Shown here one piece after another: positions 1 through 9,111 of a stretch of DNA of 11,275 nt (positions are counted from its first letter, which is position 1; each line of letters begins with the position of its first letter). The position numbers and the translations under genes are program-made. Source of the DNA: a virus; UHGV virus genome UHGV-1855269. One strand, written 5' to 3'. The notes below the pieces were generated by a model that worked only from the letters and a program-made list of their open reading frames with translations, had not been told where the DNA came from and ran no database searches.

Positions 1-4
1 TGTA

Positions 5-445
5 TTAAAACTCCCCGAGAACCTGGTCAATCTTGCCGCAGTCGAATACCCAGTCGACGGTTCCGCCCTCTTTAGCGTTATTGAAATCAGGCTGTTTCTG
101 GAATGCACACGAACGCGCAGTAGAAATATCACCCGATGCCGTGTTGCGAATGACGATCACGTTATTGCCCCAGGTGGCAGAGGACTGGCTTTGCGCGTTA
201 TACGCCAGAGACAGCTTTTTATTCACCGGGGAGGTTTTGAGTAGCGTCACCGTAATGGTGCCTGACTTATCGGCGTGCAGGCTGTGCATCACCTCGCCAT
301 CGGCACCGATGGTCATGGTGTTTTTGTTGCCGCCCATGGTCTGGGTGATACCTTCCTCAGAGTTCGCAGAACCCTGACCAAGATCGATAACGCCGGTCGG
401 CCCGGTGAGCGACGCGGTTACATCGAGAAAAGAATAAGTTGCCAT
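5..445 (-). CDS. Putative contractile-tail tube protein (146 aa)
   Basis: Complete ORF immediately downstream of the sheath-sized gene. AAGGAG-like RBS 6 nt before the ATG at 445. Size and Gly/Thr/Ser-rich composition fit a tube protein. Family assignment is from memory only. Confidence 0.45.
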   Translation of the reverse strand: MATYSFLDVTASLTGPTGVIDLGQGSANSEEGITQTMGGNKNTMTIGADGEVMHSLHADKSGTITVTLLKTSPVNKKLSLAYNAQSQSSATWGNNVIVIRNTASGDISTARSCAFQKQPDFNNAKEGGTVDWVFDCGKIDQVLGEF

Positions 446-455
446 TTATCGCTCC

Positions 456-1601
456 TTAGCGAACCACGTTGATCTGCACATCGGCATAATGAACTGCGCC
501 AGCCAGCTTACAGGCCACCTGGATTAACGGTGCTTTGCGCGCTTCGCGGTCGGCCTGCGCCTGTTCGGACAGCGGTTGCGCATACACGTAATAGCCTTTG
601 GTCAGCGTATCGCCGGAATTCAGCTGTCCGATAGGGCCACCATTCCACACGCCAGCAGCTACCAGACCGTTCGTGACGGACTGATCCATGGACTGTTCAA
701 CGTTGGAAAGCAGACGGGTCACACCGGCATCAGTCTGCGGAATTTTGGTGGTGCTGGTATAAAGCAGGTTATAGAGGTTGGTCTGCACATAATTCTGTAA
801 CCAGTCCAGGCCGTGGCGTTCATCAAAGAAATCGCCGTTAGCCATCACTCCCTGCTGGAGGATAGCCGTATCATTCTGGTAGTACACGAATACATTGCAG
901 TTTTTTGCATCAAGTGCCGATGCCTGGCTGACTGTCAGTGTTTCATACCCGACGCCCGGCTCCTGCTTAAACTTGAGCGTAATCGCGGTATTACTGCCAT
1001 TAAAATTAACCGTGAATGCCCGGCCAAATGCAGATAACGCAGCGTATTTATTACCCGATGAATACTGAATAAAACTGCGTGAATATCCGGCGGTTTTCAG
1101 TTTTGATGCCAAATCATCGCTGGATGCAGTCTGCAGGCATTTCTCATCGCTTGTCGTAATCGCCAGAATACGGCTTACAGAAGAGGATTCGATCGCCGCA
1201 GCCACTTTCAGCCAGTCTGCATCCGGAATATCTGCATCGTCTGCAATCCCCAGCCCATACCATGAAGTATAATCGAGCATGGCATTCACAGCCTGCTCCA
1301 GCGTCTCAGGCGTGGCCTGTTCGCTGTCTCCCTTCGTTTTCACCCAACGACCAACAAAAACCTCCTGAGGTTTCGGTGATTGAGAGAAAAACACCTGCGC
1401 AGCCTTATATTCTGGTGATTCCACGCCAAAATCTTTTCCAATATCTTCCGCGGCAGAATAACGGCGAATGCGCTCACTTACCGGAATGATTGTGGACGGG
1501 CCGAGAATGAGTAATGCACCAAAATTTCGCCCTGATGCTGCACGCGGCGACATGATCACATCAACATTAACAACGTTTGATACAGGCAAGCCCTGTGCCA
1601 T
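456..1601 (-). CDS. Putative tail sheath protein (381 aa)
   Basis: Long ORF with a GGAG RBS before the ATG at 1601. Sheath-then-tube order and small-sheath size match P2/Mu-type myophage tails. Ser/Thr/Asn/Gly-rich composition. No homology search possible. Confidence 0.45.
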
Positions 1602-1604
1602 AGC

Positions 1605-2168
1605 TTAATCTCCGAAAAAGATGACTGGTGCTTCCACCAGCGATTTAATACCGTACTCGCGCACAACCTTCCGGCGCAGACGCACCGTCATATCGTAGCG
1701 GCGGACCCATTGCTGATTAATAAGTTCAGGGAAGGGAGTCAGACCTGTGTAATCGCCAAGAGACAGCCCCAGCGCATTCAGTGCTGCATTGTTCTGCGGC
1801 ACAGATATACCGTCACGAAACCGGGACGCATACACCATCCCCGCCGGTCCATAAAACGAAGCCATACACTCAATCGTTTCATGCCGCCAGAGCTGAGAGC
1901 CATCATCAGTCTGTCTGGTGAATGCCGGACTGTCATCACCTGACCATCCGATAACCCCAAACGCACACCAGTTCGTTTCAGCCGGTAGCAGTGGCGGCTG
2001 CTCTTTCTGCCAGCGCGGGCGAACCATCCCGGCAGACAGACCGGAAACGTTACGCATCCACTGGCTTAACAGCCTGTCGAGCGCTTCGTCATAATCCGGA
2101 TCGCCACTGGTTGGTATTAACCATCCGCGCTCTGTACTGGTGTTATTGCTCAACCGGAGTTCCCCCAT
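1605..2168 (-). CDS. Hypothetical neck or tail-completion protein (187 aa from the first ATG)
   Basis: ORF packed directly upstream of the sheath gene. The ORF track starts at TTG 2171; the first ATG is at 2168. It overlaps the upstream gene by about 26 nt, suggesting coupling. Confidence 0.4.
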   Translation of the reverse strand: MGELRLSNNTSTERGWLIPTSGDPDYDEALDRLLSQWMRNVSGLSAGMVRPRWQKEQPPLLPAETNWCAFGVIGWSGDDSPAFTRQTDDGSQLWRHETIECMASFYGPAGMVYASRFRDGISVPQNNAALNALGLSLGDYTGLTPFPELINQQWVRRYDMTVRLRRKVVREYGIKSLVEAPVIFFGD

Positions 2169-2532
2169 CAAACGGCATCAACTCACAATGCGCCTGAACG
2201 AATCCGGCCCCATAAGCTGTATACGGGTCGACGAAGGTCACACGATAATCACGGCCCTGATACGTCACGATATCGGCATCACGGCCAGTCTGTCCCTGCG
2301 TCAGTCGCTCAGTCGTCACAATCAGAATTGCACCGCTGATTACCTGCCCTGCCTGCATACGGCGGTTTTCCAGAGAGCGATCAACAGTTACGACTCCGGC
2401 AAACTGCTTTTTAACTTCACTGTCGCTGCCGATCCCGTCCTCATCCACCGTTTGCACTCGGCGTGTTACCCACAAATTGAAGTCGCAAAAATCGGGGTCA
2501 AAAAGCACGTCTGTTACATCAAGAGTAGGCAT
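2143..2532 (-). CDS. Hypothetical virion structural protein (129 aa)
   Basis: ORF with a GAGGGA RBS before the ATG at 2532. It overlaps the preceding gene end by 14 nt. Position is within the neck-gene block. Confidence 0.4.
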   Translation of the reverse strand: MPTLDVTDVLFDPDFCDFNLWVTRRVQTVDEDGIGSDSEVKKQFAGVVTVDRSLENRRMQAGQVISGAILIVTTERLTQGQTGRDADIVTYQGRDYRVTFVDPYTAYGAGFVQAHCELMPFDGGTPVEQ

Positions 2533-3073
2533 CTTTATCCCTCACAACATGGGTAATGGCTCTGCGATATTGCCCGGTGTCGATTAGCGGTTTCACCAGA
2601 TCGGTTCCGGGGGACTCGCCAGCAGCGCGTCGGGCAAGCTCCGCTTTCGCCCCTTTACGCCCTCGACGCGCGCGGGCTTCAACGGTGCTGTCAGCAAGCG
2701 GCGTAAAGCCGGTAATGGTCATGTACCGCCTGACACCATTAGCGGCCAGCGTGCCAGCCTGGTTGAGGGCTCTTTCCGCACCCGCCGCATTTCCATCAAG
2801 CGCAGCCTGCGCCGCTGCTTTAAGCTGCGGCACTGTCTGTTCCTCTACCGATTTAACGCCGGGGATCAGGTGCGGGCGTGGGGGGATATTTTGCGCCGGT
2901 GAGCCGTTTTCATTGACGTAGCCGATCCCCGCATTACCAAACGGAACATCTTCACGCTCGCTGTCTTCCGAAGGGATGCCGACCAGCACTTCTTTTTTAC
3001 CGATGGATTTGAGCGCATCCAGAATGGCCTGAGCGTTATCCACCCTCGTTGTCACACCGCTTTTGAAACTCAT
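2519..3073 (-). CDS. Putative head-tail joining or tail completion protein (184 aa)
   Basis: ATG at 3073 overlaps the upstream stop (ATGA coupling). The C-terminal motif KPLIDTGQ resembles the L-x-DTG motif I associate with phage tail-completion/virion-morphogenesis proteins; this is from memory and unverified. Confidence 0.4.
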
Positions 3074-3477
3074 AGCTGGCGACCGCCCGCACCAAACATC
3101 GTGATCAGCTGATAAAATTCAGCGCCATATCGGGTGTTATTCCAGAAGCCTGCGTCAGGGTTTAGCGTCGCGCTGGTGTCATAGCTGACGCTTACCTTGT
3201 CAACGGACTTAGAGGACTGAACACCATTGGTTGAACCGCCCGGGCCGCCAACCAGCATCGCCCGGCTATCTGCCGCCCAAAGCGTCATGTAGTGCGCAAC
3301 GAACAACTCGGCAAAATACGGAAACAACTTTTTGCCGGTGACCTTTTCGCTTAGCAGCACATCGGCCAGATTCAGACGAAACTGGATTTGCGCTTCGGGA
3401 TATTTGGCAGGGTCAGCAAACTGCGGGAAGTCGCGGCGAAAATCACTTACCGCTGGCAGACTTTGATTCTTTGGCAT
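3070..3477 (-). CDS. Hypothetical head-tail connector-type protein (135 aa)
   Basis: GAGGT RBS 5 nt before the ATG at 3477. Gly-rich C-terminal half. Position is in the neck module upstream of the sheath gene. Confidence 0.4.
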
Positions 3478-3664
3478 TTTTTACCTCGTTACGCGCGTCT
3501 GTGGCTTTGCCAACGGATACTTCCGCGTGCGCACGAGTGAACCAGTGCGTGGCAACGTCTTCCTCCACTGCATGACGTCCTTTAACAAACTCGCGCCGCG
3601 AACCGTCGGGAAGCGTGAGCACAAACGGGGTATGTACGTGTATTACTGCATTATTTTTTGCCAT
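3443..3664 (-). CDS. Hypothetical small protein (73 aa)
   Basis: AAGGATG RBS before the ATG at 3664. It overlaps the next gene start by 35 nt. Confidence 0.35.
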
Positions 3665-3705
3665 CGGGTCATCCTTAATGGCCCCGCCAGGGGGCCATAT
3701 GGCTG

Positions 3706-4023
3706 TTAAATGCCATCAACGTACGAAATGGTTTCTTTGTACACTGGCTCGACTGCACCCAGCTTGCCGTAGTAGGTCGCAATCTGATACAGACCACGAT
3801 ACTGCACCGGCACGCTCTGAAGCGGAACCAGCGGGTAGCGGACGTATTTTTTATCGTTGGTGTACGCAACCATGCGATCCTTATTCCCCACACCACGGCC
3901 TTTCAGCCATTTAACCGCGCGGATATTCAGCGGAACACCGTTCTGGTGATAGCTGATGGTGTTGGTCTGAAGGTACGTCAACAGGGACTGGTTACCCGCA
4001 GATGAAACGATGATGCTGGACAA
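3706..4023 (-). CDS. Hypothetical protein, start uncertain; possibly the 3' part of a disrupted gene
   Basis: The ORF begins at TTG 4023 with no RBS. A strong RBS plus ATG sits at 4111 in another frame and hits a stop after 24 codons. See the frameshift finding. Confidence 0.3.
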   Translation of the reverse strand: MSSIIVSSAGNQSLLTYLQTNTISYHQNGVPLNIRAVKWLKGRGVGNKDRMVAYTNDKKYVRYPLVPLQSVPVQYRGLYQIATYYGKLGAVEPVYKETISYVDGI

Positions 4024-4097
4024 CAGAGCAAACTGCTCAGGTGGGATCTGCCACGCGATGCTCCACGACCTCCAGTTGAGGCCTGTAATCAGCTAAC

Positions 4098-4259
4098 TTA
4101 ACGACGCCCATGTTTCACTCCTGCTTTGGCTAGTCTGTAAACACCAACAAGGCGCTCTGCGAACGCCCTGTTATTTGCTACGGCTACCACTAATCCCTCA
4201 GGTGAATCAGGGTGTCGAATCTCTTCTTTTTCCTGGTATTTCTTACGACGTTTTGTCAT
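4098..4259 (-). CDS. Small basic hypothetical protein (53 aa, MTKRRKKYQEKEE...)
   Basis: ATG at 4259 preceded by an AGGAG RBS. It sits between cII and the structural block, where lambda would have the start of O. No recognisable similarity. Confidence 0.3.
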   Translation of the reverse strand: MTKRRKKYQEKEEIRHPDSPEGLVVAVANNRAFAERLVGVYRLAKAGVKHGRR

Positions 4260-4337
4260 AATTACTCCTGTGGATTGATCCAGTCTTTCTACATCAGGCC
4301 TCGAAGAATTCGCCGTTCTTCGGGGCTTTTTCTTTTG
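4260..4337 (+). ncRNA. oop: Candidate oop-like antisense RNA overlapping the 3' end of cII
   Basis: A plus-strand intrinsic terminator lies inside the cII 3' end, antisense to cII, as for lambda oop. The 5' end is only estimated from an 80-nt length expectation. Confidence 0.35.
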
Positions 4338-4572
4338 TCAGCATTCTGGCTACTTTCTTAGCCAGTTCCGCCAACTCCTCGTCTTCAACACCCCATTCAA
4401 GAACAGCCAGAAGCATTCCCATTTTGGGGATGAAGCTATCTTTCCATCGCGAAATTTGCGATTCATTAATCCCTAACGCGTCGGCAACCTTTCGCTGACC
4501 ACGTACAGCAATTCGATTCAGGATGTTGCTTGTAATTGCATTCGCTTTCTTGCGAGTACTTGTAAGTTGCAT
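4294..4572 (-). CDS. cII: CII-like transcriptional activator (92 aa)
   Basis: The translation aligns with lambda CII across the HTH and the conserved ESQISRWK and MLLAVLEWGV segments. Start chosen at the internal ATG 4572 with an AAGGAAA RBS. It is not identical to lambda CII. Confidence 0.85.
   Translation of the reverse strand: MQLTSTRKKANAITSNILNRIAVRGQRKVADALGINESQISRWKDSFIPKMGMLLAVLEWGVEDEELAELAKKVARMLTKEKAPKNGEFFEA
4299..4336 (+). terminator. Rho-independent terminator (10-bp stem with one mismatch, 7-nt loop, T-rich tail)
   Basis: cctcgaagaa-ttcgccg-ttcttcgggg followed by ctttttctttt. It is functional only on the plus strand, because the T-tract follows the stem only there. Confidence 0.55.
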
Positions 4573-4651
4573 ATGTAAGTATTTCCTTAGATAACAATTG
4601 ATTGAATGTATGCAAATAAATGCATACACCATAGGTGTGGTTTAATTTGAT

Positions 4652-4683
4652 GCCCTTTTTCAGGGCTGGGATGTGTAAGAGCG
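4652..4683 (-). promoter_or_regulatory. nutR: nutR site (boxA CGCTCTTA, boxB GCCCTGAAAAAGGGC)
   Basis: The reverse complement reads cgctcttacacatcccagccctgaaaaagggc. This matches the lambda nutR boxA/boxB arrangement and lies just downstream of cro. Confidence 0.8.
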
Positions 4684-4691
4684 GGAATGTC

Positions 4692-6044
<1,353 letters not shown>

Positions 6045-6094
6045 TCCCCACCTCAATCTCGCTAACCAAAAAACAAACTATTTTCCGTTTAAAA

Positions 6095-6162
6095 ACAATG
6101 GAGTTTGTTTTTCATGCCCCTTTTTACAATATTTCTTGTTTACAACATACAATCTTTCTTGT
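6095..6162 (+). promoter_or_regulatory. OL3-OL2-OL1 operators overlapping the PL promoter
   Basis: Three 14-bp ACAA-N6-TTGT sites: 6095-6108 acaatggagtttgt, 6126-6139 acaatatttcttgt, 6149-6162 acaatctttcttgt. They lie about 45 nt upstream of nutL. Exact -35/-10 hexamers not assigned. Confidence 0.8.
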
Positions 6163-6207
6163 AATTTTAAGCCATCAGCAGGACGCACTGACCACCATTG
6201 AAGGTGA

Positions 6208-6238
6208 TGCTCTTAAAAATTAAGCCCTGAAGAAGGGC
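6208..6238 (+). promoter_or_regulatory. nutL: nutL site (boxA-like TGCTCTTA, boxB GCCCTGAAGAAGGGC)
   Basis: tgctcttaaaaattaagccctgaagaagggc; the boxB hairpin matches lambda nutL. It lies about 160 nt upstream of the N start. Confidence 0.85.
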
Positions 6239-6396
6239 AGCATTCAAAGCAGAAGGCTTTGGGGTGTGTGATACGAAACGAAGCATTGGCCGGAAGTGCG
6301 AATCCGGATTAGCTGCAAATGAGCCAATCGTGGGGTGTTTTCGTTCAGGACTACGACTCACACACACCACCAAAGCTAACTGACAAGAGAATCCAG

Positions 6397-6729
6397 ATGG
6401 ATGCACAAACACGCCGCCGCGAACGTCGCGCAGAGAAACAGGCTCAATGGAAAGCAGCAAATCCCCTGTTGGTTGGGGTAAGCGCAAAACCAGTTAACCG
6501 CCCTATTCTCTCGCTGAATCGCAAACCGAAATCACGAGTAGAAAGCGCACTAAATCCGATAGACCTTACAGTGCTGGCTGAATACCACGAACAGATTGAA
6601 AGCAACCTGCAACGTATTGAGCGCAAGAATCAGCGCACATGGTACAGCAAGCCACGCAGTGAAATGGGTGTGACTTGTGTTGGTCGCCAGAAGCAACGCG
6701 GAAAATCAATTCCAGCTTATTACGATTGA
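6397..6729 (+). CDS. N: Antitermination protein N, lambda type (110 aa)
   Basis: The translation from ATG 6397 (MDAQTRRRERRAEKQAQWKAANPLLVGVSAKPVNRPILSLNRKPKSRVESALNPIDLTVLAEYH...) matches lambda N, including the arginine-rich boxB-binding motif. The C-terminus diverges. Confidence 0.9.
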   Translation: MDAQTRRRERRAEKQAQWKAANPLLVGVSAKPVNRPILSLNRKPKSRVESALNPIDLTVLAEYHEQIESNLQRIERKNQRTWYSKPRSEMGVTCVGRQKQRGKSIPAYYD

Positions 6730-6737
6730 GGTGAGCC

Positions 6738-6875
6738 ATGCTCAAGAAAGTCAAACGTCGACTTTACAAAGAAGGTAGATATTCATGCCAGTTGCCAAAA
6801 TGCGACACAACAAAATGGAGTGTCGATGATTGGTGTAACTGGATAGATAGATACGGAACTTGGTGGGATAAATAA
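6738..6875 (+). CDS. Small Cys-rich hypothetical protein (45 aa), in the slot lambda uses for ral
   Basis: ATG 6738 with a GAGGTGA RBS immediately after the N stop. Four Cys (C-x4-C, then two more) suggest a zinc-ribbon-like fold. Below the ORF-track length cut-off. Confidence 0.4.
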   Translation: MLKKVKRRLYKEGRYSCQLPKCDTTKWSVDDWCNWIDRYGTWWDK

Positions 6876-6929
6876 CAGGTAACTTAAGCATATTTACTTT
6901 CGCAGCAAACCACTTATTTGAGGTGAGAT

Positions 6930-7400
6930 ATGACAAAATCATGGAGCGTACCTTTTCCTGAATCAGAAACTGAACATGATGGAATGCCTGTTTTCTGGAG
7001 ATTCCAGGCGACAGTTGAAGAAGATGGGATAAAAATATTCGCACTTCAATATATAGCTTTTCATCAGACAGAGCATTATGCATGGTTGGTTCCTGCGCAT
7101 TGGATTGTTGATTTTAAACCAGCACCAAATCAGTGGTTACAGGAATGGAAACAAAAGAGAAATAGATATGCAATTAAGAAAGTAGCAAAAAATGCAGAAA
7201 GATCTTTTGCATTCCCAACGAAGAAACTTGCCATTGAAAGTTTATTGCGCCGGAAGAAATACCATTTAATGAGAATCAAACAAGATTTGGCTGTTGTATC
7301 AACTCTTGTTGATGGGATGAAGAATATTGATACATCAACACCAGATATTGAATATAACTTTGGACACAACCAAGAAACAGAAAATTGGGTATTTTATTAG
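6930..7400 (+). CDS. Hypothetical protein (156 aa) in an AT-rich insert
   Basis: GAGGTGAG RBS before the ATG at 6930. The local sequence is visibly more AT-rich than the flanks. No TM segments or known motifs recognised. A plus-strand terminator follows. Confidence 0.6.
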   Translation: MTKSWSVPFPESETEHDGMPVFWRFQATVEEDGIKIFALQYIAFHQTEHYAWLVPAHWIVDFKPAPNQWLQEWKQKRNRYAIKKVAKNAERSFAFPTKKLAIESLLRRKKYHLMRIKQDLAVVSTLVDGMKNIDTSTPDIEYNFGHNQETENWVFY

Positions 7401-7504
7401 TACAAATAAGCACTGTGTATTCATTCCAACGAGTGAATACACGGAGCAATGTCGCTCGTAACTAAACAGGAGCCGACTTGTTCTGATTATTGGAAATCTT
7501 CTTT

Positions 7505-7528
7505 GCCCTCCAGTGTGAGGGCCTTTTT
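7505..7528 (+). terminator. Candidate intrinsic terminator after the AT-rich insert
   Basis: gccctc-cagtgt-gagggc followed by cttttt: a 6-bp GC stem, 6-nt loop and T-run. Confidence 0.45.
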
Positions 7529-7594
7529 ATATGCATACCAATAACGCTTCACTCGAGGCGTTTTCGTTATGCAATCAAATATAAGGAGTTACCC

Positions 7595-7729
7595 ATGATG
7601 CACTTTCAGCTCGCGGGTAGCGGCGTCATGTCCGCTTTCTACCCGCACGAATCTGAATTATCACGCCGAGTTAAACAATTAATCAGAGCAGCAAAGAAAC
7701 AACTGGAGGCGTTATGCGCAATGAAATAG
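7595..7729 (+). CDS. cIII: CIII-like protein (44 aa; candidate FtsH inhibitor)
   Basis: AAGGAG RBS 6 nt before the ATG at 7595. The N-terminus MMHFQLAGSGV...ESELSRRVKQLIRAAKK resembles lambda CIII (MQYAIAGWPVAG...ESLLERITRKLRDGWK) from memory. Confidence 0.55.
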   Translation: MMHFQLAGSGVMSAFYPHESELSRRVKQLIRAAKKQLEALCAMK

Positions 7730-7866
7730 CCATCAATCACCAGATGCTTCGTGCTGCACAGAACAAAGCAGTAATAGCCAGATTTATTGGTGATTCCAAA
7801 ATGTGGCTTGAAGCAAATAAAGCGATGAAATCAGCTATCAACCTTCCGTGGTATCGCAGGAAATGA
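7714..7866 (+). CDS. kil: Kil-like host-killing protein (50 aa)
   Basis: ATG 7714 with GGAGG upstream; it overlaps the cIII stop. The segment AAQNKAVIARFIGDSKMW resembles the lambda Kil core as I recall it. Below the ORF-track cut-off. Confidence 0.45.
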   Translation: MRNEIAINHQMLRAAQNKAVIARFIGDSKMWLEANKAMKSAINLPWYRRK

Positions 7867-7941
7867 GTTTTACAGATAACTGGTCAGACGAGGAATTCAT
7901 TCGTCAGATGAAAGAATTAATCGGTAACGAAGGAGATATTC

Positions 7942-8112
7942 ATGTCACTTGCAACCACAGTGAAGGAGAGCAAGTTACAGAGACGCATGTACACGCAGCA
8001 GGCGTTAATGTATCGCCAGAAGGGAGATCGTGAAGGTGTTCGCGTATTTTTGAATGCGGCAAAGACTGAAGTATTAAATCAGCGTTATTTCCTTGGGCCA
8101 TGTCCATTCTGA
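7942..8112 (+). CDS. Small hypothetical protein (56 aa), Arf-like by position
   Basis: Strong AAGGAGA RBS 5 nt before the ATG at 7942. It sits between kil and erf, where P22 has arf. A competing ORF at 7863-8033 in another frame overlaps it. Confidence 0.4.
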   Translation: MSLATTVKESKLQRRMYTQQALMYRQKGDREGVRVFLNAAKTEVLNQRYFLGPCPF

Positions 8113-8122
8113 GAACAATCAT

Positions 8123-8728
8123 ATGAGCAAAGAATTTTACGCAAGACTGGCAGCCATTCAGGAGAATCTGAACGCGCCAAAAAATCAGTACAACTCATTC
8201 GGTAAATATAAATACAGAAGCTGCGAAGATATTCTTGAAGGCGTTAAGCCGTTACTGAATGGTCTGTTTTTATCAATCAGCGATGAAGTTGTGCTGATTG
8301 GTGATCGGTATTACGTGAAAGCCACGGCAACTATTACCGATGGCGAAAACAGTCATACAGCAACCGCTCTTGCACGAGAGGAAGAAAGCAAGAAAGGAAT
8401 GGATTCTGCACAAGTTACGGGAGCTACAAGCTCTTATGCACGCAAGTATTGCCTCAATGGTTTATTCGGCATTGATGATGCGAAAGATGCAGATACCGAC
8501 GAGCATAAACATCAGCAGAACGCAGCAGCAAAGCAATCAAAACCATCACCTACGCCTGAACAGGTTCTAAAAGCATTCACTGACGCGGCATTGCAGAAAA
8601 ACACCGTGGAAGAGCTTAAACAGGCGTTCGCCAAAGCGTGGAAGATGCTCGAAGGCACACCGGAGCAGCACAAAGCGCAGGACGTTTACAACATCAGACG
8701 AGACGAATTAGAAGGAGCGGCTGCTTAA
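8123..8728 (+). CDS. erf: Erf-family single-strand annealing protein (201 aa)
   Basis: The translation from ATG 8123 (MSKEFYARLAAIQENLNAPKNQYNSFGKYKYRSCEDILEGVKPLL...) closely matches my memory of P22 Erf. The ORF-track upstream extension is rejected. Confidence 0.75.
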   Translation: MSKEFYARLAAIQENLNAPKNQYNSFGKYKYRSCEDILEGVKPLLNGLFLSISDEVVLIGDRYYVKATATITDGENSHTATALAREEESKKGMDSAQVTGATSSYARKYCLNGLFGIDDAKDADTDEHKHQQNAAAKQSKPSPTPEQVLKAFTDAALQKNTVEELKQAFAKAWKMLEGTPEQHKAQDVYNIRRDELEGAAA

Positions 8729-9111
8729 TGGCACATTCGATTACTGTAAGACTAAACAAGCCCGCAAGAGAGTTTCAGGCCGGGGAAAATATCGGATTCA
8801 ACATCCGTGCTGGCGTTCAGTATTACGATCGCCAGACAAAAAAGAAAGAATGGACAAACTACAGCGCCGTTGTATTTGTCAAGCCGGGAGCGCAAGCGGA
8901 TTACTACCGTAGCGTTCTTGTTGAAGGTGGCATTGTGGAAATTACCGGAGAAAACATCAGGGTTGATGTTTATCAGGGGCAAAATGGTCAATCAATCACT
9001 CTTGAATTACTGAATGCAAAGATTGGATTTGCAGCTTCAGGAAATGGCCCGCAGCAGCAAAGTAGTAACCAGCAGAACACTCCTGTATACGACGATTCCA
9101 TCCCATTCTGA
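8728..9111 (+). CDS. Phage SSB-like protein with C-terminal DDSIPF tail (127 aa)
   Basis: ATG 8728 overlaps the erf stop (TAATG), with a GAAGGAG RBS. The Gln/Gly-rich linker ends in DDSIPF, the signature of the bacterial SSB acidic tip (DDDIPF). Confidence 0.6.
   Translation: MAHSITVRLNKPAREFQAGENIGFNIRAGVQYYDRQTKKKEWTNYSAVVFVKPGAQADYYRSVLVEGGIVEITGENIRVDVYQGQNGQSITLELLNAKIGFAASGNGPQQQSSNQQNTPVYDDSIPF

What the first reader, a model, noticed from the sequence alone, without database searches (positions are those of the whole stretch)
4024..4293. Abrupt junction: cII is followed directly by neck, sheath and tube genes
Reading along the minus strand from PR, the order is cro, nutR, cII, a 53-aa ORF, then the structural block ending in sheath and tube. 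Lambdoid phages normally place replication genes, Q, lysis, terminase, portal and capsid between cII and the tail genes; none are present. The structural block also begins mid-module without a capsid gene. This looks like a deletion or recombination scar producing a defective prophage. As drawn, the tail genes would be read from the CI-repressed PR promoter, which could make this a repressor-controlled tail-like particle locus. Alternatively it is a non-canonical genome architecture.
Basis: inference. Interest (0 to 1): 0.7.

Follow-up and report, generated by a model that had tools for sequence, protein, structure and literature searches.

The report
Deletion scar in defective E. coli prophage
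A single 15.7-kb deletion inside an integrated E. coli phage joined its early control region directly to its tail genes and removed everything needed to replicate, build heads and lyse the cell; this is an ordinary way for a prophage to become defective.

Summary
On the minus strand, PR, cro, nutR, cII and ORF53 are followed directly by neck, sheath and tube genes.

The join is mapped to the base. The crossover is a 3-bp GAT (window 4046-4048) inside an imperfect 9-bp match. It lies inside replication gene O, which keeps 22 of 273 codons. It also lies inside the major capsid gene, which keeps the last ~113 of 313 codons in another frame.

A near-identical intact prophage exists at the same dsdC (argW-side) site in E. 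coli CP170302.1. It carries about 15.7 kb between the two breakpoints. Collinear relatives show O, P, nin, Q, lysis, terminase, portal and head genes there.

The identical junction occurs in 12 independent contigs from genome and metagenome assemblies, so it is not an assembly artefact. No complete RefSeq E. coli genome (0 of 5,426) has it.

Deleted copies differ from the intact parent by only 2-4 substitutions over 13 kb of tail genes. The deletion is therefore recent, and selection on the tail genes cannot be assessed. Two of the copies show further damage (IS1 insertion, a 977-bp tail deletion). No lysis genes remain in the part of the element that could be read.

Verdict: an ordinary defective prophage. 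The idea of a repressor-controlled tail particle is mechanistically possible but unsupported.

The parts
5..445 (-). tail tube gene (146 aa)
   Evidence: PF11681, E 8e-60. Identical to the intact parent L011.
456..1601 (-). contractile tail sheath gene (381 aa)
   Evidence: PF11863/DUF3383, E 4e-101. An identical protein is encoded in both intact and deleted prophages.
1605..2168 (-). neck/tail terminator gene (187 aa)
   Evidence: PF23961, E 1e-34. Three synonymous differences from the parent.
2143..3073 (-). two neck genes (129 aa at 2143-2532; 184 aa at 2519-3073)
   Evidence: No Pfam match. Collinear with and identical to the parent. SEN34 homologues are annotated as tail completion/Neck1 and virion structural protein.
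3070..3477 (-). DUF4054 (E217 gp27-like) head-tail connector gene (135 aa)
   Evidence: PF13262, E 1e-27. Interrupted by IS1 in copy L012/L027.
3443..3664 (-). STY1053-family small gene (73 aa); first intact late gene after the junction
   Evidence: RefSeq annotation of homologues. The window copy carries a cluster of substitutions.
3706..4045 (-). 3' remnant of the major capsid gene (last ~113 of 313 codons, no proper start)
   Evidence: PF09950, profile positions 147-251 of 251. Alignment with the intact 313-aa capsid gene of L011.
4046..4048 (-). deletion crossover: shared GAT within the imperfect 9-bp match GCNGATNCC
   Evidence: Three-way alignments with the O gene (L026, HK446) and the capsid gene (L011, 606R2).
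4037..4111 (-). remnant of replication initiator gene O: 22 O codons, then Pro-Thr-stop
   Evidence: Translates as MGVVKLADYRPQLEVVEHRVAD+PT*, against the intact 273-aa O of L026. HK446 annotates this gene as DNA replication protein O.
4098..4259 (-). ORF53 (HK97 gp53-like, function unknown)
   Evidence: Annotated hypothetical in HK446, similar to HK97 gp53. No Pfam match.
4294..4572 (-). cII gene, with an oop-type terminator on the opposite strand at 4296-4328
   Evidence: PF05269, E 2e-42. Terminator scan found a 14-bp stem. HK633 annotates an oop-like element at the equivalent place.
4652..4683 (-). nutR (boxA CGCTCTTA, boxB GCCCTGAAAAAGGGC)
   Evidence: Exact motif search.
4692..4907 (-). 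cro (71 aa)
   Evidence: ORF list and sequence. HTH_3 in identical homologues. HK446 annotates a Cro analogue.
4921..4963 (.). OR operators (ACAA-N6-TTGT at 4921-4934 and 4943-4956), with PR (minus strand) and PRM (plus strand)
   Evidence: Promoter scan and operator pattern search.
5011..5643 (+). cI repressor (210 aa; HTH plus LexA-like S24 self-cleavage domain)
   Evidence: ORF. PF01381 and PF00717 on the identical-length homologue. Ala-Gly, Ser (GDSM) and Lys motifs were read from the sequence.
6095..6238 (+). OL operators (three ACAA-N6-TTGT sites, 6095-6162)/PL region and nutL boxB (6224-6238)
   Evidence: Pattern search and terminator-like hairpin.
6397..6729 (+). antiterminator N gene (110 aa), intact
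   Evidence: Translation. PF11438 on homologues.

Best explanation
The window is the centre of a defective prophage in an E. coli chromosome, integrated next to dsdC.

The parent. It was a mosaic temperate phage. Its early region is lambdoid: 434-type cI/cro immunity, N, cII, O, a DnaB-type P gene, nin genes and Q. Its late region is a myovirus head and contractile-tail module (DUF2184 capsid, DUF3383 sheath).

The event. While integrated, one illegitimate recombination at a 3-bp microhomology removed about 15.7 kb. The span runs from codon 22 of O to codon ~200 of the major capsid gene. By inference from collinear relatives, it took out the origin and replication genes, the nin genes, Q and the late promoter, holin, endolysin and Rz, both terminase subunits, portal, scaffold and cement protein.

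Consequences (inferred). The remnant cannot replicate, package DNA, make heads or lyse the cell. It keeps a complete immunity and early-left system: cI, OR/OL, cro, N, nutL/nutR, cII, and the PL operon with kil, cIII, erf, abc2, dam and int. It also keeps an apparently intact neck and tail cluster. That cluster now lies in the PR operon, so N-antiterminated PR transcription after SOS cleavage of cI could read into it.

Shown versus inferred. The deletion, its endpoints, the parent and the recurrence of the junction are shown. The loss of viability and the PR read-through are inferred from established lambda biology.
For: 1. Breakpoints. The lambdoid half (99% to HK446/Sf6-type phages) ends at about 4046. 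The structural half (92% to vB_EcoM-606R2, 99.7% to L011) ends at about 4048-4051. They overlap in GAT within GCNGATNCC.

2. Both junction genes are truncated, and they are out of frame with each other.

3. Intact parent. GenBank CP170302.1 (loci L011 and L026) has the same integrase and dsdC flank, the same PL operon and the same immunity region. Its tail genes are 99.7% identical to the window's. The two breakpoints lie 15,749 bp apart in that record.

4. Missing gene set. A second intact relative, E. coli EH01-18-04-A (L009), shows the full annotated order across a 15,536-bp equivalent: cII, ORF53, O, helicase, nin, Q, holin, lysozyme, Rz, terS, TerL, portal, MuF, scaffold, cement, capsid.

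5. Recurrence. The identical junction is in L003-L008, L012/L027, L013, L015, L016, L017 and L028, from NCBI, ENA and Logan assemblies.

6. Single origin. Deleted copies share marker SNPs in both prophage and flank, which fits one event inherited in one lineage.

7. Regulatory elements are intact.
Against: - The last few kb of the deleted element (rest of the tail fibre, invertase region, attR) could not be read, so relocated genes there are not formally excluded.
- A 4.6-kb stretch of the closest parent (between L011 and L026) was not seen directly. Its content (Q, lysis, nin) is inferred from L009 and L029.
- Nothing here measures transcription or particle formation.
Confidence: 0.9

Rival explanations
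1. Domesticated, repressor-controlled tail-like bacteriocin (R-type tailocin). The deletion put a complete contractile-tail cluster under the SOS-sensitive cI/PR/N circuit, and the host lineage keeps it to make killing particles.
For: - The tail cluster is complete as far as it can be read in most deleted copies: tube, chaperone with frameshift partner, 693-aa tape measure, hub, spike, gp25-like protein, baseplate J, wedge and the start of the tail fibre.
- It is co-oriented 1.3 kb downstream of PR and nutR, with N and a cleavable cI intact and no strong intrinsic terminator in between.
- About 14 of the 24 contigs read that encode this exact sheath carry the deletion.
- Tailocins are headless, SOS-induced and lack replication and packaging genes (PMC12090994).
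Against: - No holin, endolysin or Rz remains in the ~31 kb read, whereas tailocins are released by lysis of the producer.
- The tail genes differ from the intact phage by only 2-4 substitutions in 13 kb, so there is no history of independent maintenance and no selection signal.
- Two of the seven long deleted copies carry further lesions in the late genes: IS1 in DUF4054 (L012) and a 977-bp Dit-gp41 deletion (L017).
- Useless head-tail connector genes and a capsid stub are retained.
- The allele is absent from 5,426 complete E. coli genomes.
Confidence: 0.06
2. Recombination between two different prophages (or a prophage and an infecting phage), not an internal deletion of one element.
For: - The two halves have different affinities in the phage database: HK446/Sf6-type siphovirus or podovirus early region, against a vB_EcoM-606R2-type myovirus late region.
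- GC content steps from about 0.53 to about 0.43 near the junction.
Against: - Intact prophages with exactly this combination exist as single elements, so the mosaic predates the scar.
- The closest one, CP170302.1, is identical to the deleted copies on both sides of the junction. It sits at the same integration site with the same flank, and the two breakpoints are collinear and 15.7 kb apart.
Confidence: 0.03
3. Assembly or scaffolding chimera, or a viable phage with a non-canonical gene order.
For: No complete RefSeq E. coli genome spans the junction. The junction 50-mer and 27-mer were absent from the species-representative genome set and from the JGI metagenome set.
Against: - The same junction was assembled independently in at least 12 contigs from NCBI, ENA and Logan, including a 5.17-Mb chromosome and a 299-kb metagenome scaffold.
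- Both genes at the junction are truncated, and the essential functions are missing.
Confidence: 0.01

Closest known systems
Cryptic/defective lambdoid prophages of E. coli (K-12 DLP12, Rac, Qin, e14; CPS-53 near dsdC), as I recall them
   Same: An integrated lambdoid element that has lost replication, lysis and morphogenesis genes by internal deletion while keeping repressor, early genes and integrase. It sits in the chromosomal neighbourhood (dsdC side) that I recall CPS-53 occupying.
   Different: Much younger: essentially no divergence from an intact parent. One clean deletion rather than many. It keeps a whole contractile-tail cluster.
Intact mosaic prophage of E. coli CP170302.1 (L011+L026) and E. 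coli EH01-18-04-A (L009); phage vB_EcoM-606R2
   Same: Same architecture and gene order. CP170302.1 has the same integration site, immunity region and PL operon, with 99.7% (window) to 99.98% (other deleted copies) identical tail genes.
   Different: They carry 15.5-15.7 kb between the two breakpoints. In L009 this stretch is annotated as O-P-nin-Q-lysis-terminase-portal-head, all of which is missing here. L009 and 606R2 are only about 92% identical in the tail module and sit at other sites or have other immunity regions.
R-type pyocins and other R-tailocins (PrtR/PrtN-controlled in Pseudomonas)
   Same: Headless contractile-tail gene cluster with no replication or packaging genes, downstream of a LexA-like, SOS-cleavable repressor circuit (PMC12090994; PMC12066065 title and abstract).
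   Different: No lysis cassette. No evidence of long-term maintenance. Connector genes and a capsid stub are retained. Control would be by accidental fusion to PR and N antitermination, not a dedicated activator. No particle or killing data.
Phages HK446, Sf6, HK633 (early region)
   Same: 99% identical cro-cII-ORF53-O' segment. The OR/PR layout matches what HK446 annotates. The operators follow the ACAA-N6-TTGT pattern in the window.
   Different: Those phages continue with full O, P, nin and Q, and have siphovirus or podovirus late genes.

Membership tests
Defective prophage formed by internal deletion | Junction interrupts genes that are full length in functional relatives | tested here: met
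   O keeps 22 of 273 codons. The capsid gene keeps about 113 of 313 codons, out of frame.
Defective prophage formed by internal deletion | An intact, collinear relative carries the missing segment between the same two points | tested here: met
   The breakpoints are 15,749 bp apart in CP170302.1 (L011+L026) and 15,536 bp apart in L009.
Defective prophage formed by internal deletion | Element is integrated in a chromosome, with integrase at one end next to host genes | tested here: met
   In junction-bearing L027 and L028, a 389-aa (or IS-disrupted) integrase abuts dsdC-dsdX-dsdA-emrYK-evgA. The flank is 100% identical to E. coli. The attR end was not reached.
Defective prophage formed by internal deletion | Essential lytic functions (replication, late activator, lysis, packaging, head) absent from the whole element | tested here: inconclusive
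   Absent from integrase to the first ~265 codons of the tail fibre, about 31 kb. The last few kb to attR could not be fetched.
R-type tailocin | Contractile-tail gene set without head, packaging or replication genes | tested here: met
   Sheath, tube, chaperone, tape measure, hub, spike, gp25-like protein, baseplate J and wedge are present. Head and packaging genes are deleted.
R-type tailocin | Own lysis cassette for release | tested here: not met
   No holin, endolysin or spanin among the called genes of L012, L013, L015-L017, L027 or L028. In relatives L009 and 606R2 these genes lie between Q and terS, inside the deleted span.
R-type tailocin | Maintained as a host locus: conserved and under purifying selection independently of a live phage | tested here: inconclusive
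   Only 2-4 substitutions in 13 kb against the intact parent, which is too few for dN/dS. Two of the seven long copies have extra lesions. Absent from 5,426 complete genomes.
R-type tailocin | Stress-responsive regulator upstream | tested here: met
   cI with an S24 domain, OR operators, PR, nutR and N are present and co-oriented. Actual expression was not tested.
R-type tailocin | Particles are produced and kill related strains | not testable with these tools
   Needs induction, electron microscopy and killing assays.
Functional lambdoid temperate phage | Complete PR operon: O, P (origin), nin, Q, then late genes from PR' | tested here: not met
   O is truncated at codon 22. P, nin, Q and the PR' region are missing.

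The most novel reading that the evidence does not exclude
The deletion accidentally created a working SOS-inducible tail factory. After cI cleavage, N-antiterminated PR transcripts would express the whole neck and tail cluster. The free contractile tails would be released when a co-resident prophage lyses the cell. They would then either kill competitors as a newborn tailocin or complete the heads of related phages. The clonal spread of the deleted allele, which accounts for more than half of the contigs read that encode this exact sheath, would reflect that benefit. This would be a tailocin caught at the moment of its birth.
Probability: 0.05. Interest if true: 0.55.

Novelty: new member of a known kind. 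Interest (0 to 1): 0.13.

Why it matters
It matters little beyond annotation. The locus should be annotated as a defective prophage, with an O' stub and a capsid pseudogene fragment, and not as a novel phage architecture.

It is a clean, datable example of one-step prophage inactivation. The parent, the product and the 3-bp microhomology are all known. The example shows that a single deletion can remove every function lethal to the host while keeping immunity and early genes.

If junction-bearing strains were shown to make tails on induction, the locus would be a useful natural model for the first step of tailocin evolution. Nothing here indicates that.

Tried and rejected
1. Junction in reference sets. 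An exact 50-mer and a 27-mer across the junction gave no hits in the species-representative genome set, and the 27-mer gave none in the JGI metagenome set. The junction was found only through an exact look-up of the capsid-stub ORF and the sheath protein.

2. Tail-fibre/attR end of a deleted copy.
- A homology search with the baseplate wedge protein returned a 98% representative on a 1.6-kb contig, which was of no use.

3. Annotation of the closest parent. CP170302.1 is not in the annotated E. coli collection. The nearest structural module among complete RefSeq genomes is only 95.9% identical.

4. Horizontal mobility of the deleted allele.
- L028's flank differs by 50 sites, but 47 of them fall in a 2.4-kb dsdC-dsdX patch.
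- The rest of the flank shares lineage SNPs with L027.
- This is local recombination, not transfer of the element.

5. Rfam scan of the window: no family reached its threshold.

6. Literature. Nothing was found on vB_EcoM-606R2. No listed title among the tailocin and defective-prophage papers described an E. coli tailocin of this type; only the 15 listed titles and abstracts were scanned.

7. Selection test on the tail genes. It was abandoned because there are only 0-2 substitutions per gene.

Full report
**1. The observation**

- PR: TTGACA-17-GAAAAT, 4963->4935.
- cro: 4692-4907.
- nutR: boxA 4683-4676 and boxB 4666-4652, both exact motifs.
- cII: 4294-4572, PF05269, E 2e-42.
- ORF53: 4098-4259.
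- A run of virion genes follows. These are an STY1053-family gene, DUF4054, two neck genes, a neck terminator (PF23961), the sheath (DUF3383, E 4e-101) and the tube (PF11681, E 8e-60).

On the plus strand lie several more elements.
- cI (5011-5643) has an HTH and a LexA-like S24 domain.
- Beyond it are three 434-type OL operators, nutL boxB and an intact N gene.
- The cI and Cro sequences match what I recall of phage 434.

- Window 3706-4045 is the 3' third of a major capsid gene. It matches PF09950 profile positions 147-251 of 251.
- The first 22 codons of replication gene O survive at 4111-4046.

**2. Where exactly the join is**

BLAST against complete E. coli genomes and against phage records splits the region cleanly.
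- The lambdoid half reaches down to about 4043-4046. It is 99% identical to HK446, Sf6 and HK633.
- The structural half reaches up to about 4048-4051. It is 92% identical to vB_EcoM-606R2.

Three-way alignments fix the crossover.
- O side: ...CGCGTGGCAGAT|ACCGAAG
- Capsid side: ...GATTTGCTGAT|CCCACCTGAG
- Window: ...CGCGTGGCAGATCCCACCTGAG

The exchange lies in a shared GAT (window 4046-4048) within an imperfect 9-bp match, GCNGATNCC. O is cut after Asp22 and runs on as Pro-Thr-stop. The capsid remnant is in another frame and has no proper start. This is the signature of illegitimate, microhomology-mediated deletion.

**3. The parent**

*A relative with the full gene set (L009).* E. coli EH01-18-04-A (L009) carries a single prophage with the full order. 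That order is int ... N, cI, cro, cII, ORF53, O, DnaB-type helicase, nin genes, Q, holin, lysozyme, Rz, Rha, terS, TerL, portal, MuF, scaffold, cement, DUF2184 capsid, STY1053, DUF4054, neck, sheath, tube. The window maps to it with a 15,536-bp gap. The lambdoid-early/myovirus-late mosaic therefore predates the scar. This disposes of the idea that two separate prophages recombined.

*The closest parent (CP170302.1).* It turned up through exact look-ups of window proteins. GenBank CP170302.1 yielded L011 (head and tail genes) and L026 (early region, integrase, dsdC-dsdX-dsdA-emrYK-evgA flank).
- In that record the two breakpoints are 15,749 bp apart.
- Its PL operon and immunity region are the window's own.
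- Its tail genes are 99.7% identical to the window's.
- A 4.6-kb stretch between L011 and L026 was not seen. Its content (Q, lysis, nin) is inferred from L009 and from L029.

*Host.* The flank is 100% identical to K-12-type E. coli.

**4. The junction is real and recurrent**

No complete RefSeq E. coli genome (0 of 5,426) spans the junction. Exact junction patterns were also absent from the species-representative genome set and the JGI metagenome set.

The capsid-stub ORF is nevertheless on record in six short contigs from different samples. All six carry the junction 27-mer and are collinear with the window at 98.3-99.4% identity.

Further contigs were fetched through the sheath protein and the 142-aa PL-operon protein, and some carry the same junction.
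- L012/L027: GCA_052768345.1, a 5.17-Mb chromosome.
- L013: GCA_013928545.1.
- L015: GCA_048124485.1.
- L016 and L017: SRA and ENA assemblies.
- L028: a 299-kb metagenome scaffold.

Counting the places listed as similar but not shown, about 14 of the 24 contigs read that encode this exact sheath carry the deletion, and about 9 are intact. An assembly artefact is excluded.

**5. Age and spread**

At every position where the window differs from them, the other deleted copies are identical to one another and to the intact CP170302.1 prophage. The only exceptions are the junction and one SNP.

Over 13.3-13.6 kb of tail cluster the deleted copies differ from the intact parent by 2-4 substitutions, with 0-2 per gene. 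This stretch includes the first ~265 codons of the tail-fibre gene. The deletion is therefore very recent, and no dN/dS test is possible.

The deleted copies share flank SNPs, so they represent one event in one lineage. L028's 50 flank differences might have suggested transfer into another background. However, 47 of them fall in a 2.4-kb dsdC-dsdX patch, which is local recombination.

The window's own differences are clustered at 1704-1719, 3521-3699 and 6055-6386. The last cluster includes a lambda-type nutL-N leader replacing a different 187-bp leader. These are recombination patches acquired by the defective element.

**6. Further decay**

- L012/L027 has IS1 inside the DUF4054 gene and a second IS in the integrase gene.
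- L017 has a 977-bp deletion fusing the Dit-like and gp41-like tail genes.
- At the same chromosomal site, L029 shows other deletion derivatives of the same family.
- L023 shows an independent parallel in a different lambdoid prophage. There O is cut at codon ~109 and followed directly by connector, neck, sheath and tube genes.

Deletion is clearly the common fate of prophages at this locus. This fits the general picture of prophage decay and loss of host-lethal functions. I recall that picture from Bobay, Touchon and Rocha, PNAS 2014, which I did not read here.

**7. How it most likely works**

*Shown:* one deletion removed about 15.7 kb, running from O codon 22 to capsid codon ~200.

*Inferred from lambda biology and from the gene order in L009 and 606R2:*
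- The origin, which lies inside O in lambda (from memory), is lost, along with P, Q and PR', the lysis cassette, terminase, portal and head genes.
- The element therefore cannot replicate, package DNA, form heads or lyse the cell.
- It still confers 434-type immunity.
- On SOS induction it would express the PL operon (N, cIII, kil, erf, abc2, dam, xis/int) and the shortened PR operon.

The tail genes now lie 1.3 kb downstream of PR and nutR, with N intact. The simple scan found no strong intrinsic terminator on that strand. N-modified polymerase could plausibly read into them.

**8. Is it a tailocin?**

Tailocins are headless, lack replication and packaging genes, are SOS-induced, and are released by lysis of the producer (PMC12090994).

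The first two features are met here, and a suitable regulator is present. Several things count against membership.
- No lysis genes remain in the ~31 kb read.
- Connector genes and a capsid stub are retained.
- There is no history of independent maintenance.
- Two of the seven long copies are already further damaged.

I put this reading at about 5-6%. It cannot be excluded without transcript and particle data.

**9. Comparison and novelty**

The closest known things fall into three groups.
- The cryptic lambdoid prophages of E. coli K-12, including CPS-53 near dsdC (from memory).
- The intact mosaic prophages of CP170302.1 and EH01-18-04-A, and phage vB_EcoM-606R2.
- R-type pyocins, but only by analogy.

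This is a new instance of a well-known kind: a defective prophage made by one internal deletion. It is notable only for how cleanly parent, product and breakpoint can be defined.

**10. Limits**

- The tail-fibre/attR end of the deleted element was not reached.
- The closest parent is not in the annotated collections.
- The species and serotype labels of the carrier assemblies were not available.
- Expression and particles are untested.

Noticed in passing
L023 (GCA_020556165.1, JACWBE010000001.1) 1-4400: An independent parallel case at the same dsdC-side integration site. A different lambdoid prophage (YdaS/YdaT-type early region) has its O gene cut at codon ~109. It is joined directly to a connector/neck/sheath/tube block of another tail type (PF05135, PF05521, PF04984, PF10618). 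The sheath is itself shortened, and an IS sits in the integrase gene. Two independent deletions both start inside O. This could be chance or a hot spot.
   Followed up: partly
window 6272-6348 (with clustered substitutions 6055-6386): The nutL-to-N leader in the window is a 77-bp lambda-type sequence. All other deleted copies and the intact parent have an unrelated 187-bp leader. This is a mosaic patch, which shows that the defective prophage still exchanges DNA with other lambdoid phages.
   Followed up: partly
window 1704-1719 and 3521-3699: Two further clusters of substitutions, plus a 1-bp indel in a G run near 3690-3694, are unique to the window among all junction-bearing copies. One cluster has 3 synonymous changes in the neck terminator. 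The other has 4 synonymous and 2 non-synonymous changes in the STY1053-family gene. They look like short gene-conversion tracts from a related prophage.
   Followed up: partly
L029 (GCA_016656285.1) 1-9100: Another decay product of the same prophage family at the same site. A capsid gene (270 aa) abuts a truncated baseplate J gene, and the Rz-like lysis gene abuts abc2. Two other large deletions have therefore removed the neck-to-baseplate genes and the whole immunity and replication region.
   Followed up: no
L012/L027 (CM127711.1) and L017 (ERZ28645190): Secondary lesions occur in junction-bearing copies. IS1 sits inside the DUF4054 gene, and an IS4-family element sits in the integrase gene (L012/L027). 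A 977-bp deletion fuses the Dit-like and gp41-like tail genes (L017).
   Followed up: yes
window 5640-6044 (+): A 134-aa gene lies immediately after cI, in the position rexAB occupies in lambda. It begins with a hydrophobic signal-like stretch ([20 protein letters not shown]) and has no Pfam family on record. It corresponds to Sf6 gene 38/HK446_039. It is possibly a lysogen-expressed exclusion or surface protein.
   Followed up: no
L028 13340-15784 (dsdC-dsdX flank): A 2.4-kb patch of about 1.9% divergence lies in dsdC-dsdX, right next to the prophage end, in an otherwise near-identical chromosomal background. This indicates local homologous recombination at this locus.
   Followed up: partly
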